From contig JBHLJY010000004.1 in NCBI GenBank assembly GCA_048887225.1, forward strand, positions 64,001 through 128,000: a DNA stretch of 64,000 bases, written 5' to 3'. This DNA comes from Candidatus Hodarchaeota archaeon (lineage in GTDB: Archaea; Asgardarchaeota; Lokiarchaeia; Sigyniarchaeales; SOKP01). Below, piece after piece: positions 1,152 through 62,237 of the stretch (position 1 is the stretch's first letter; the number at the start of each line of letters is the position of its first letter). Below the pieces are notes generated by a model. That model saw only the letters and a program-made list of their open reading frames with translations. It was not told the DNA's origin and made no database searches. Made by a program: the position numbers and the translations under genes.

Positions 1152-1713
1152 TTACAAATCCTCCTTTATTTTATCATCGTATTCTCCATTATTAATTCTC
1201 TCTTGAATGATCCTAGGGTCCTCTCCTTCAACAGTTAGGCCTACAGATAAGGCGGTTCCTAATACTGTTTTAACACCAGTTTTAAATGTTTTATCTAAAA
1301 AGATGTCTTTTTTAGCATTTGCGACCGAAATTATTTGGTCAAGAGTTAAATTACCAATTTTATCCTCTCCTGGATTTGAAGAACCCTTCTCAACTCCAAC
1401 TTCTTTCAATAATAATGAAGCTGTAGAAGGAGTTTCTACAAAAATTTCAAATTGTTTTGTCTCAGGATCACACTCAATTCTCACTGGAACAGTTAATCCT
1501 TTAAACACCATTGTTTTTTCGTTTACAGCATCAATGACATCCTTAATATTGATACCCGTTGGACCTTAAGCCAATAATTCGAAATGAATTATTTACAGCC
1601 GGTCCAATTGGAGGTCCTCCTGAAGCATTAGGGGTAATTTTCGAAGTGAAAGTTTATTATACACTCCCTCCAGTCACAAGGGCCTTTACTACAACCTTTC
1701 CTTTTTTACTCAT
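1152..1713 (-). CDS. rpl11: 50S ribosomal protein L11 (uL11), intron-split; exons 1713-1664, 1627-1595, 1566-1152; spliced product 165 aa
   Basis: The ORF track shows only the last 119 aa. Removing 1628-1663 and 1567-1594 gives MSKKGKVVVKALVTGGSASGGPPIGPAVGPTGINIKDVIDAVNEKTMVFKGLTVPVRI..., the conserved L11 N-terminus; 498 nt = 166 codons. Confidence 0.93.
1567..1594 (-). other. BHB-type intron 2 in rpl11 mRNA (28 nt, canonical)
   Basis: UUGGACC-GGCU-[GU^A]-AAUAAUUC-loop AUUUC-GAAUUAUU-GGCU-[UA^A]-GGUCCAA: 7-bp exon stem, 4-bp helix with 2 G-U pairs, 8-bp intron stem; excision restores the frame (GCT GTA GGT CCA, A-V-G-P). Confidence 0.9.
1628..1663 (-). other. BHB-type intron 1 in rpl11 mRNA (36 nt, relaxed exon-side helix)
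   Basis: Minus strand reads AGGG-[AG^U]-GUA...UAC-CCCU-[AA^U]. Central 4-bp helix AGGG/CCCU with two 3-nt bulges; carries in-frame TAA TAA; excision gives GGG AGT GCT (G-S-A). Confidence 0.82.
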
Positions 1714-59585: not shown

Positions 59586-60416
59586 ATGAATTTGCCAAAA
59601 AATCTTGAACTTAAACTATATAATCTTATCTCTTTTCTAAAAAATAAGAAAATAATTGTTGCTTTCTCAGGAGGCGTAGATAGTTCACTTCTGTCTTATC
59701 TTTCAAAAAAATACGCAAAAGATACTCTACTTATAACTGAGCGTTCAATTCTATACCCTGAAGAAGAACTTGAATTATCAAAGTTATTTGCTAAAAAGCA
59801 TAATATCTCTCATATGATTATAGAACAAAATCCCCTAAATGATGAAAAATTTAAATTAAATCCAATTAATCGTTGCTATATTTGTAAAAAAGGACTTTAT
59901 AATGAAATTATTAAAATTAAAAATAACCAACATTTTGATATAATTTTAGATGGATCAAACTTAGATGACTTAAACGATTATCGTCCGGGCATGCAGGCCT
60001 TAGAAGAATTAGGTATTTTTACCCCTTATATCGAATTTAAAATTAATAAACAAGAAATTAGAGAAATAAGTAAATTCTTTGGTTTAGATGTTCAATCCAA
60101 ACCTTCAATGGCATGCTATTCTTCTCGGATACCGTACAATCAAATCATAAGCGAGAAAAAATTAGATTTAATTAGAGAAAGTGAAAGATTTCTAAAACAA
60201 ACTTTTAATTTAAAGCAATTGAGAGTAAGACTTCACGATGAAAATTTAGCACGTATAGAATTCTTAAAATCCGATTTACCTAGAATTTTAACCGATGTAA
60301 ATCTACAAAAAATAAAAAATAAATTCAAAGAACTTGGTTTTTATTACATAACAATTGATATAGAAGGTTTTCGCAGTGGCTCTATGAATGAAGTATTATG
60401 TCTTAAACAAGACTAA
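59586..60416 (+). CDS. larE: ATP-dependent sacrificial sulfur transferase LarE-like (TIGR00268)
   Basis: AFSGGVDSS, RCYICKK, DGSNLDD..DYRPG, ACYSSRIPY and GFRSGSMN motifs. Confidence 0.88.
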   Translation: MNLPKNLELKLYNLISFLKNKKIIVAFSGGVDSSLLSYLSKKYAKDTLLITERSILYPEEELELSKLFAKKHNISHMIIEQNPLNDEKFKLNPINRCYICKKGLYNEIIKIKNNQHFDIILDGSNLDDLNDYRPGMQALEELGIFTPYIEFKINKQEIREISKFFGLDVQSKPSMACYSSRIPYNQIISEKKLDLIRESERFLKQTFNLKQLRVRLHDENLARIEFLKSDLPRILTDVNLQKIKNKFKELGFYYITIDIEGFRSGSMNEVLCLKQD

Positions 60417-60427
60417 ACTTTAGGGTT

Positions 60428-61854
60428 TTAAGCCGTTAATTTTTCAATGTAGTCTATAACTTTTTTTCTCTTCTCTAACGCTTTAATTGCCGCCTTTTCA
60501 ATTCTATTTTCCATCTCATCGATTAATTTTGGAGTTTGTTCACCAATTTCCTGTTTTATTTTAGTATATGCAGATTCTCGAAACCTTGGCAATATATCTT
60601 TTTTATCTTCATTTTCAAAAATCATAGAAACTTTATTCGAATCATCAACGTACCCAATTTCCGCACATCTAATACCATTATTACCTAAATCAGAAATTAT
60701 TTTCTCAGAAACCTTTTCTGAACAATATATAAGAAGTGCGTCTAATGATACTCCCAAATAATCAACACCGACTTTATCTAATAACTTTAAAACTGTCGAA
60801 TTAACAAGTTTTCTAACTTCTTCTTCATAAATAGTAACACCACAATTTGCCTCATAATTTATCTCATATAAATCACCTCTAAGACCTCCATTGGTCACAT
60901 CGCACATGGCATGAATTTCATCTAAATTATCTGAATTTAAGATTATTTCACATGCTTCGAGGAATTTAACGTTCAACGTCTCTTTTACTACGTCATGATT
61001 ACCAGAATAGATTGCTGTTGTAGTAATCGTCCCACCTCCAGCACCTTCAGTCATTAAAATTTTATCTCCAACTTTAATATTTTTTCGAGCCAATAACGTA
61101 TCGCTTGCAAGACCTACAGCTGCCACACCTCCAACTAAACGATCTCCAATCACCATATCTCCTCCAATTCTTAATGTTGATCCTGCCGTTATTGGAACTT
61201 TTGCTATTTCGGAAACTGCTGAAATGCCCGCCATGAAATCGAACAATTTTCCAACATCAGAATCATCTCCTAAATGAATATCAACCATTATCGAAATAGG
61301 TTTTGCCCCTTTCACATATAGATCCCGAAGTGCAGCCCTCGATACGCTTATGTAAGCTCGTTACATGAAATTACGTGAAAGCCGCATACAAATGGAAAGT
61401 CGCTTAGACGAGAATGAATCCCTTCCATTTTGGAAACAATGATCAAATTATTAGGATCGTAAAGTTCTCCTTTTAATCCCTTTAAATCTCGTAGCCGAAC
61501 AGCTCCCGCATCATCCAAAGAACTAGGTGCTAAATATGCTTTTTGTTTGGTTTCAGATAATTCAGCAATTAATTTATGTACAAAAAAATCTCCCGCACCT
61601 CGACATCCCACTCCCTGTTTTCCGACCGAAACATCAGCATTATAAATATCTAATAATTCTTTAATGAAAGAATCTTTTACTGAACTGATATCACTCTTTT
61701 TGGATTCATCTAAAACTGCTTCAGCTAGCTTCTTTGCTAAATTTTGACCGATCTCTTTATAATCAAGATATTCTTGGACTAATCTTCTAATGATTTGTTG
61801 GTCAGAATTACCCTTTTTAATTAATCTTCTTGTTAAACCTTCTAAATCACTCAT
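60428..61854 (-). CDS. AIR synthase-related (PurM/ThiL/SelD superfamily, MJ0640-like) protein, intron-split; exons 61854-61371 and 61341-60428; spliced product 465 aa
   Basis: The two ORF-track fragments join after removing 29 nt: ...GVGCRGAGDF...DDAG...GIHSRLSDFPFVCGFHVTRAALRDLYVKGAKP...DVTNGGLRGD; 1398 nt = 466 codons. Confidence 0.88.
61342..61370 (-). other. BHB-type intron (29 nt, canonical) in the AIR-synthase-related gene
   Basis: GGCUUUC-ACGU-[AA^U]-UUcAUGUAA-loop CGAGC-UUACAUAA-GCGU-[AU^C]-GAGGGCU: 7-bp exon stem, 4-bp helix, 3-nt bulges; excision gives CAC GTA ACG AGG (H-V-T-R). Confidence 0.88.
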
Positions 61855-62237
61855 ATATATAACACTTAATATTTTAATTCTATCAATCAATAATATAACA
61901 ACGATTTTATTAAGTTAAATAGCAAAAATTAAAAGAAAAATTCTTTGATTACTTAATATTCTGGAATAATTTATTCCAAAAATTAAATATATTTGAACTT
62001 AAATATTTTTAACCAAATCAAGTTAAATTTTAAAAATTATATTAAAGAATTGAAAGATTGTTTTAAATTTTTATTCTATTAATTAATTCTTTTACAAAAA
62101 TAAAGAAAAAAAGTTGTCTATTAGGCAAACCTACACTTAAATATTAGTCTTAATTATTGATATTATAAATAAATTAATGGTGATAGATTCTTCTATTGCC
62201 AACCACTTATATTAGAAAAAAAGATTTTCTTTAAATA

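What the first reader, a model, noticed from the sequence alone, without database searches (positions are those of the whole stretch)
61342..61370. BHB intron in an AIR-synthase-related gene: structure predicts the conserved residue
Two ORF fragments (61348-61890 and 60428-61315) are halves of one protein. Naive removal using the CGTA direct repeat gives H-V-S-R. BHB geometry (helix ACGU/GCGU, bulges AA^U and AU^C, 7-bp exon stem GGCUUUC/GAGGGCU) places the cut one base later and gives GFHVTRAALRD, which matches my recollection of the family consensus (FHVTRA). This argues for true endonuclease splicing rather than a random insertion, and shows the introns are not restricted to ribosomal genes.
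Basis: partly seen in the sequence, partly recalled or inferred. Interest (0 to 1): 0.88.

Follow-up and report, generated by a model that had tools for sequence, protein, structure and literature searches.

The report
tRNA-type mini-intron in Asgard enzyme gene
A 29-base insert shaped exactly like an archaeal tRNA intron splits a conserved enzyme gene of an Asgard archaeon, and about fifty diverged relatives keep it with compensating base changes, so the messenger RNA is very probably cut and rejoined by the tRNA-splicing enzymes, which the papers I could search report only for the cbf5 gene.

Summary
Window 61342-61370 (minus strand) is a 29-nt insert.

- **Structure:** The minimum-energy fold is a strict hBHBh' motif. 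It has a 10-bp exon helix, a 4-bp helix ACGU/GCGU, bulges AAU and AUC, and an intron hairpin.
- **Junction:** Cutting after the second base of each bulge gives GFHVTRAALRD. Of 114 unsplit orthologs, 99 have Thr there, 15 Ala and 1 Ser.
- **Relatives:** The same-site insert occurs in about 28 of 120 genomes of the same family (20 checked by sequence). None was seen in other Asgard families.
- **Length forms:** It occurs as 28-, 29- and 30-nt forms, and the last carries an in-frame TGA.
- **Covariation:** In 49 distinct sequences, 98.6% of the pair positions counted across the sequences form standard pairs. Five pairs in the intron stem show compensatory changes.
- **Selection:** Both exons are under purifying selection.
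- **Machinery:** The genome encodes two EndA paralogs and RtcB.

No RNA data could be checked, so excision is inferred rather than shown.

The closest known case is the cbf5 pre-mRNA intron of Crenarchaeota. This scan has already noted similar introns in other Asgard genomes. I rate it a new member of a known kind.

The parts
61371..61854 (-). Exon 1 of the AIR-synthase-related gene. It runs from ATG 61854 (MSDLEGLT...) and its last base, 61371, is the A of the junction codon ACG.
   Evidence: The ORF is listed. Orthologs start at MSDLEGLT.
61342..61370 (-). 29-nt BHB intron, UUUCAUGUAACGAGCUUACAUAAGCGUAU. It holds the third base of bulge 1, the inner stem and loop, the 3' strand of the central helix, and the first two bases of bulge 2.
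   Evidence: Homologous 28-, 29- and 30-nt inserts sit at the same site in relatives.
60428..61341 (-). Exon 2. It begins with the CG of codon ACG, and the stop codon is at 60428-60430. It carries the rest of the AIRS N-domain and the AIRS_C domain.
   Evidence: Pfam PF00586 and PF02769 hits. 75-95% identity to orthologs.
61377..61386 (-). 5' strand of outer exon-exon helix h (UGCGGCUUUC).
   Evidence: Fold. Helix h is 99% paired in 49 sequences.
61373..61376 (-). 5' strand of the central 4-bp helix H (ACGU, in exon 1).
   Evidence: One relative has AUGU, which still pairs (L054).
61370..61372 (-). Bulge 1 (AAU). The predicted 5' cut lies between 61371 and 61370.
   Evidence: The register matches that of the introns ARAGORN calls at the anticodon-loop (37/38) position in tRNA-Trp, tRNA-Thr and tRNA-Met of the same genome.
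61348..61369 (-). Intron hairpin h': UU(C)AUGUAA, loop CGAGC, UUACAUAA.
   Evidence: Five of its pairs show compensatory double changes in relatives.
61344..61347 (-). 3' strand of central helix H (GCGU, in the intron).
61341..61343 (-). Bulge 2 (AUC). The predicted 3' cut lies between 61342 and 61341.
   Evidence: Relatives have AUC, AGC or AAC, always 3 nt.
61331..61340 (-). 3' strand of outer helix h (GAGGGCUGCA, in exon 2).

Best explanation
The insert is an archaeal bulge-helix-bulge (tRNA-type) intron inside a protein-coding pre-mRNA.

Proposed mechanism:
1. The transcript folds locally into an hBHBh' motif built half from exon and half from intron sequence.
2. The splicing endonuclease EndA cuts after the second base of each 3-nt bulge. 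Here it is probably an alpha-beta heteromer.
3. RtcB joins the exon ends. The 29-nt intron is released, probably as a circle.
4. The mature mRNA reads TTTCACGTAA|CGAGGGCT and encodes a 465-aa PurM-superfamily (AIR-synthase-related) enzyme with GFHVTRAALRD at the junction.
5. Unspliced mRNA can give only a 168-aa fragment ending ...FHVISCNELT.

Shown here: the structure, its register, its conservation and covariation, selection on both exons, and the presence of EndA and RtcB genes.

Inferred: the cleavage and ligation themselves.

The intron is old within one Asgard (Lokiarchaeia-like) family. It has since been lost or exchanged many times.
For: - **Geometry:** the fold is a strict hBHBh' in the correct register. 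Removal at the bulges restores one ORF.
- **Junction residue:** Thr is the residue in 99 of 114 unsplit orthologs.
- **Census:** every one of 20 sequence-checked alleles from a protein-based census carries the insert at the same codon. The BHB rule gives A|CG (Thr) in all of them, even where bulge or helix bases differ: UAA, AGC, AAC, or AUGU instead of ACGU.
- **Three lengths:** 28 and 29 nt shift the frame in different ways, and 30 nt is in frame but carries TGA. One excision mechanism explains all three. Recoding would need three different mechanisms.
- **Covariation:** in 49 distinct sequences, 98.6% of the pair positions counted across the sequences form standard pairs. Five pairs have changes on both sides, all in the intron stem, which the search pattern did not constrain. 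Slid controls give 30-56% paired.
- **Exon codons:** intron-bearing alleles are fixed at CAC GTA A|CG AGR, which builds helices H and h. Thirty intronless alleles vary freely, mostly CAT, GTA or GTT, ACT and CGA.
- **Selection on exons:** 32-50% of conserved codons differ synonymously between alleles, while the intron differs at 0-6 of 29 bases in the five closer 29-nt alleles (11 in L044).
- **Machinery:** the genome has two EndA paralogs. One has the Tyr/His/Lys pattern and the other lacks the His. It also has RtcB.
- **Register:** the distances are 6 nt from helix h to the 5' cut and 1 nt from the 3' cut to helix h. Introns that ARAGORN calls at the anticodon-loop (37/38) position in tRNA-Trp, tRNA-Thr and tRNA-Met of this genome show the same distances.
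- **Precedent:** the cbf5 intron of Crenarchaeota, including lineage-specific loss (PMC2738675).
Against: - There is no RNA-level evidence. No RNA run was listed for this DNA, so the junction is unobserved.
- Thermodynamic stability is ordinary (z = -1.77).
- Ser is tolerated at the junction in one unsplit ortholog. Residue conservation therefore does not by itself fix the cut to the base.
- Most of the 49 aligned sequences were found with a pattern that fixed helix H and part of helix h. Only h' and the outer part of h are free tests.
- The sequences are related, so the shuffle statistics overstate independence.
Confidence: 0.88

Rival explanations
1. Translational recoding. Ribosomes pass the insert without RNA splicing. 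They could hop from the GUA before the insert to the GUA at its end, as in T4 gene 60 or mitochondrial byp elements. Alternatively they could frameshift or read through a stop.
For: In the window the insert is flanked by a CGUA direct repeat and holds a hairpin. Hopping would give HVSR, and Ser is tolerated in one ortholog.
Against: The repeat follows from the near-palindromic central helix. It is broken in relatives, for example CGUU versus CGUA in L050 and GUAG or GUAA at the 3' end in L053 and L056. No stop codon follows the take-off codon. The 28-, 29- and 30-nt forms would need different recoding events. Hopping does not explain the conserved 10-bp exon-exon helix or the exact 3-nt bulges. 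Thr, not Ser, is the family residue.
Confidence: 0.03
2. A split gene. The two ORFs are translated separately and the halves assemble. The hairpin would be an intercistronic RNA element.
For: Gene callers report two ORFs. The second has a GTG start at 61315, and some relatives have an ATG inside the insert (MSVSRAAL).
Against: The break falls inside the AIRS N-domain. The GTG start would drop the conserved RAALRD motif. Start codons are not conserved among alleles, and the 30-nt forms have none after the TGA. Unsplit orthologs are the rule. This reading gives no reason for BHB geometry or for the exon-codon constraint.
Confidence: 0.04
3. A decaying pseudogene, or a neutral insertion or mobile-element footprint that is never removed.
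For: The insert breaks the frame. Presence is patchy among close relatives.
Against: Both halves keep 72-95% amino-acid identity with abundant synonymous change. This is the only copy of the gene in a 98%-complete genome. The insert is kept at one site across several genera with compensatory changes. No other lesions are present.
Confidence: 0.03
4. Assembly or sequencing artefact.
For: None specific.
Against: The same insert appears in dozens of independent assemblies from NCBI, ENA, JGI and Logan.
Confidence: 0.01

Closest known systems
BHB intron in the cbf5 (pseudouridine synthase) pre-mRNA of Crenarchaeota (Desulfurococcales and Sulfolobales; Watanabe 2002, Yoshinari 2006, Yokobori 2009 = PMC2738675)
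   Same: A short BHB-type intron inside a protein-coding sequence. It is associated with a two-subunit splicing endonuclease, gene callers overlook it, and it is present in an ancestor and then lost in some lineages.
   Different: A different gene (a PurM-superfamily enzyme, not an RNA-modification enzyme) and a different phylum (Asgard). The sample of alleles is much larger, with three length classes and many more presence/absence changes. cbf5 splicing was shown by cDNA, whereas this case is not.
Canonical archaeal tRNA introns (hBHBh' motif, cut by EndA, joined by RtcB)
   Same: The same geometry: a 4-bp helix between two 3-nt bulges on opposite strands, with flanking helices. The cut register is the same as in this genome's own tRNA-Trp, tRNA-Thr and tRNA-Met introns. 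The size range is the same.
   Different: The host RNA is an mRNA. The outer helix is made of two coding segments rather than the anticodon stem, so the exon codons are constrained by RNA structure.
Unconventional cytoplasmic splicing of HAC1/XBP1 mRNA in eukaryotes (IRE1 cut; XBP1 exons joined by RtcB, per PMC8718801)
   Same: Spliceosome-independent removal of a short, frame-shifting intron from an mRNA, defined by RNA structure. RtcB does the ligation in the XBP1 case.
   Different: The nuclease is IRE1, which recognises twin stem-loops rather than a BHB motif cut by EndA. That splicing is a regulated stress switch. No regulation is known here.
Translational bypass elements (T4 gene 60; mitochondrial byps)
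   Same: A short hairpin-containing insert in a coding sequence, flanked in this window by matching codons.
   Different: The defining matched take-off and landing codons are not kept across alleles, and the BHB features are unexplained. I reject this reading (see rival explanations).

Membership tests
Archaeal BHB (EndA-type) intron | [quoted passage not shown] | tested here: met
   The minimum-energy fold gives ACGU/GCGU between bulges AAU and AUC. All 20 protein-ascertained alleles keep 3-nt bulges and a 4-bp helix.
Archaeal BHB (EndA-type) intron | Flanking helices h (exon-exon) and h' (intron), i.e. the strict hBHBh' form | tested here: met
   Helix h is 10 bp. Helix h' is 2+6 bp with one bulged C in the window and a perfect 9 bp in the 30-nt forms.
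Archaeal BHB (EndA-type) intron | Cutting after the second base of each bulge restores the functional RNA | tested here: met
   It restores one ORF with GFHVTRAALRD. Thr is the majority residue in orthologs. The register agrees with the anticodon-loop tRNA introns of the same genome.
Archaeal BHB (EndA-type) intron | Structure maintained by selection (covariation) | tested here: met
   98.6% of the pair positions counted across the sequences form standard pairs, and five pairs show compensatory changes. No shuffle and no slid register reaches these values. Caveats: the sequences are related, and the search pattern fixed part of the columns.
Archaeal BHB (EndA-type) intron | The host encodes the splicing endonuclease and the RtcB ligase | tested here: met
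   Two PF01974 genes lie at C1:186989 and C3:61052. One has the Tyr/His/Lys pattern and the other lacks the His. RtcB lies at C13:33313-34649 and is itself interrupted.
Archaeal BHB (EndA-type) intron | Excision observed in RNA (spliced junction or circular intron) | not testable with these tools
   No RNA run was listed for this stretch, so read laying could not be used.
cbf5 pre-mRNA intron (orthologous family) | Located in cbf5 of Desulfurococcales or Sulfolobales | tested here: not met
   The host gene carries PF00586 and PF02769, and the organism is an Asgard archaeon (source names). This is the same kind of element, not the same intron.
Translational bypass element | Matched take-off and landing codons kept across alleles, and a stop right after the take-off codon | tested here: not met
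   The repeat is broken in L050, L053 and L056. AUU, not a stop, follows GUA.
Group I or group II self-splicing intron | Catalytic RNA core of hundreds of nucleotides | tested here: not met
   The insert is 29 nt, and the window has no Rfam match.

The most novel reading that the evidence does not exclude
This intron may be one visible piece of a genome-wide, selectively maintained mRNA-splicing layer in Loki-type Asgard archaea, run by the tRNA-splicing enzymes. Under this reading:
- introns of about 30 nt sit in metabolic, ribosomal and even splicing-ligase (rtcB) genes
- they persist for family-level time spans because they gate expression, since unspliced mRNA yields only truncated protein and rtcB's own intron would create feedback
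- they are removed from DNA both by precise loss and by microhomology deletion

That would make protein-gene introns, and their turnover, a normal feature of the closest prokaryotic relatives of eukaryotes.
Probability: 0.25. Interest if true: 0.85.

Novelty: new member of a known kind. Interest (0 to 1): 0.66.

Why it matters
In the papers I could search, archaeal protein-gene introns of the tRNA type are documented only for cbf5 in Crenarchaeota. NAR papers from 2018 and 2025 still cite only that case.

This case is well supported comparatively. It lies in a metabolic enzyme gene of an Asgard archaeon, the group closest to eukaryotes. The allele series is unusually rich: three lengths, covariation, exon codons bent to the RNA structure, and repeated loss.

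- **Practical consequence:** gene callers split or truncate such genes. Public records already hold 283-310-aa fragments named 'AIR synthase-related protein'.
- **Conceptual consequence:** it gives a tractable system for studying intron persistence and loss in a prokaryote, and how coupled translation copes with unspliced mRNA.

This is one instance. The scan has already noted similar inserts in this and other Asgard genomes.

Tried and rejected
- **RNA evidence:** The look-up of sequencing runs (kind rna) listed no RNA holder for 60428-61890. None was listed, which does not mean none exists.
- **Genome-wide census, first pass:** I scanned G000 for BHB motifs whose removal joins long open frames. 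With loose structure rules, 218 sites passed against 184-216 in cut-offset controls.
- **Census, stricter passes:** strict structure with 60-codon flanks gave 8 passes against 5-10 in controls. Relaxed flanks gave 47 against 47-60. An ORF-only census does not discriminate in this AT-rich genome and says nothing about how many introns exist. It did recover this intron and the rtcB one.
- **Intronless junction alleles:** I scanned genome contigs for intronless alleles carrying the exact predicted junction (TTTCACGTAACGAGNGCNGCAC) or the naive one (TTTCACGTATCGAGNGCNGCAC). Both scans found nothing, which is uninformative.
- **ARAGORN calibration:** most of its 15 intron calls in this genome are unreliable. 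I used only the Trp, Thr and Met introns it places at the anticodon-loop position.
- **Recombination at the intron:** I asked whether a breakpoint coincides with the intron. The identity drop between the window and its nearest relative lies near 61500, about 130 nt upstream of the intron.
- **Rfam and tRNA scans of the window:** nothing found.
- **Readings considered and rejected:** ribosomal hopping or frameshifting, a two-polypeptide split gene, a pseudogene, and an assembly artefact (see rival explanations).

Full report
**What is there.** On the minus strand the window reads ...TGC GGC TTT CAC GTA A|TTTCATGTAACGAGCTTACATAAGCGTAT|CG AGG GCT GCA CTT CGG GAT....
- The upstream ORF (61348-61890) runs into the insert and stops at TAA.
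- The downstream ORF (60428-61315) is in another frame.
- Removing 61342-61370 (29 nt) gives one open frame reading CGFHVTRAALRDLYVKG.
- Removing 29 nt one base earlier, between the CGTA repeats, gives HVSR.
- Orthologs begin MSDLEGLT, so the real start is the ATG at 61854 and the spliced product is 465 aa.

**The host gene.**
- Exon 2 carries the AIRS_C domain and the AIRS N-domain from profile position 43 onward. The insert therefore cuts a domain.
- NCBIfam gives only sub-threshold similarity to ThiL, HypE, SelD and PurL.
- The nearest solved structures are HypE proteins.
- The gene is an uncharacterised PurM-superfamily, ATP-using enzyme. The break lies a few codons before the conserved RD...GAKP motif.

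**Structure.** The minimum-energy fold of 61325-61395 is a strict hBHBh' motif:
- outer helix UGCGGCUUUC/GAGGGCUGCA (10 bp, both strands exonic)
- central helix ACGU/GCGU
- bulges AAU and AUC on opposite strands
- inner stem UU(C)AUGUAA/UUACAUAA
- loop CGAGC

Established knowledge of EndA (Thompson and Daniels; Marck and Grosjean 2003; Xue 2006) places the cut after the second base of each bulge. That is exactly 61371|61370 and 61342|61341.

As an internal check, I looked at the introns that ARAGORN calls at the anticodon-loop (37/38) position in tRNA-Trp, tRNA-Thr and tRNA-Met of the same genome. They have the same register: 6 nt from the outer helix to the 5' cut, and 1 nt from the 3' cut to the outer helix.

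Folding energy alone is not unusual (z = -1.77). A strict BHB in one given register, however, is expected at about 6e-6 per position-and-length pair in this genome (2350 sites among about 4.25e8 pairs).

**Orthologs.** The organism is an Asgard archaeon. Sources name the hits Promethearchaeota, Lokiarchaeia, Thorarchaeota and Hodarchaeota MAGs. The assembly is 3.27 Mb and 98% complete.

Orthologs are mostly single proteins of 460-466 aa. At the junction column, unsplit orthologs have T 99, A 15 and S 1. Two further 'S' entries are gene-caller artefacts that start inside the insert (MSVSRAAL).

A protein search of 400 genomes of the phylum found the gene in 157.
- In the window's own family, about 28 of 120 genomes with the gene show a split or an in-frame stop at this place.
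- I cut out 20 of these, and all carry an insert at the same codon.
- None of the 38 genomes of other families does.
- Apparent splits in G133 and G177 are contig ends. G164 has an internal deletion.

**Three length classes.** A DNA pattern scan added many metagenome copies.
- The insert is 28, 29 or 30 nt long.
- The 30-nt form has a perfect 9-bp inner stem. It is in frame but contains TGA.
- The window's 29-nt form lacks one G of that stem, which leaves the bulged C. Another 29-nt form lost a loop base instead.
- Frameshifting, a different frameshift, and stop read-through would each be needed to translate through the three forms. Excision handles all three.

**The BHB rule across alleles.** Applying the BHB rule to all 20 protein-ascertained alleles gives A|CG (Thr) every time. 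This holds where the bulges are UAA, AGC or AAC, and where the central helix is AUGU/GCGU. The naive repeat rule would give Ser, Ala or Thr depending on the allele.

**Covariation.** I aligned 49 distinct sequences (A1) and counted pairs on the stated structure.
- 98.6% of the pair positions counted across the sequences form standard pairs, against 30-56% when the 3' partner is slid.
- Five pairs have changes on both sides: U-A to C-G, G-C to A-U, A-U to G-C, and others.
- All five lie in the intron stem, which the search pattern did not constrain.
- No shuffle reached the observed values.
- Caveats: the sequences are related, and helix H and part of helix h were fixed by the search pattern.

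**Exon codons follow the RNA structure.**
- Thirty intronless alleles use CAT 23 / CAC 7; GTA 17 / GTT 11 / GTG 2; ACT 19 / ACA 8 / ACC 2 / ACG 1; CGN 26 / AGR 4.
- Intron-bearing alleles are essentially fixed at CAC GTA A|CG AGR GCY. These are the bases that build helices H and h.

**Selection on the protein.** Between the window and other intron-bearing alleles, 32-50% of the conserved codons differ synonymously. Amino-acid identity stays at 66-95% in the two exons, and the five closer 29-nt alleles differ from the window's intron at 0-6 of 29 bases (L044 differs at 11). This is not a pseudogene.

**History.** I built a gene tree of 77 distinct proteins.
- Presence or absence needs at least 8 changes, of which 5 are forced by well-supported branches.
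- Intronless alleles nest inside intron-bearing clades. The window's nearest intronless relatives, L010 and L011, are sister to a 29-nt allele.
- In the window's genus, four genomes have the intron and four lack it.
- One origin in the family followed by repeated loss, or allele exchange, fits best.
- Caveats: this is a gene tree, and the intron-bearing rows were enriched by the pattern search.

The one unsplit ortholog with Ser (P0042) reads CAT GTA TCG AGA GCT GCA. That is the sequence expected if the intron were deleted from DNA between the GTA repeats. This suggests a second, DNA-level route of loss.

**Machinery.** The genome has two EndA-domain genes of about 200 aa.
- One shows the Tyr...His...Lys pattern of catalytic subunits. 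The other lacks the His. This fits a two-subunit enzyme, the type linked to broad substrate range and to the cbf5 intron (PMC5829648, PMC2738675).
- RtcB is present but its gene is itself interrupted after codon 47 by a 29-nt BHB-like insert.

**Literature.** Five searches found only the cbf5 case for archaeal mRNA BHB introns (PMC2738675, plus the reference lists of PMC12397907 and PMC5829648). I found nothing on Asgard protein genes. A 2026 preprint treats Asgard tRNA introns only. The library is incomplete, so this is not proof of novelty.

This scan's earlier notes report similar inserts in this genome and in other Asgard genomes. I treat those as leads, not as support.

**Verdict.** It is a BHB intron in an mRNA, and a new member of the kind founded by cbf5. 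Excision itself is still to be shown at the RNA level.

Noticed in passing
G000 contig C13:33458-33486 (+), outside the window; locus L148: The rtcB (RNA-splicing ligase) gene is split after codon 47 by a 29-nt insert. The insert has central helix UUGG/CCAA, a 3-nt bulge and a 9-bp stem. The ligase needed for BHB splicing would therefore itself need splicing.
   Followed up: partly
window 1567-1594 and 1628-1663 (-): Two inserts in the uL11 ribosomal protein gene, noted earlier by the scan. The 28-nt one folds with a 7-bp outer helix and an 8-bp inner stem (z = -3.96). The 36-nt one did not fold convincingly on its own.
   Followed up: partly
L158:301-1695 (P0042, GCA_048886165.1): An unsplit ortholog reads CAT GTA TCG AGA GCT GCA (HVSR). 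This is the sequence expected from a DNA-level deletion of the intron between its flanking GTA repeats. It may be a natural microhomology intron loss that changes Thr to Ser.
   Followed up: partly
window 61500-61853 versus L006: The window and its nearest relative are about 95% identical from 58001 to about 61500. Identity is only 65-80% across the first ~115 codons of the gene, and synteny ends upstream (FeoA/FeoB genes in the relative, a ZIP transporter gene in the window). This looks like a recombination boundary inside exon 1, not at the intron.
   Followed up: partly
window 59586-60416 (+): A LarE-type ATP-dependent sulfur transferase gene (TIGR00268, 264 bits) lies convergent to the AIR-synthase-related gene. 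The same neighbour is present in relatives (L006-L008), hinting at a shared pathway.
   Followed up: no
G252 (three copies) and G203 (two copies): Some MAGs hold two or three copies of the gene, one with and others without the intron. This may be strain mixture in the bins or real paralogs.
   Followed up: no
whole genome G000: ARAGORN finds only 32 tRNA genes in a 98%-complete genome and gives erratic intron calls. This is consistent with heavily interrupted tRNA genes, as described for Asgard archaea in a 2026 preprint.
   Followed up: no
public protein records P0001-P0003, P0011, P0038, P0065: Databases hold 283-310-aa 'AIR synthase-related protein' entries that are really exon 2 alone. Some begin with residues translated from the intron (MSVSRAAL).
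   Followed up: yes
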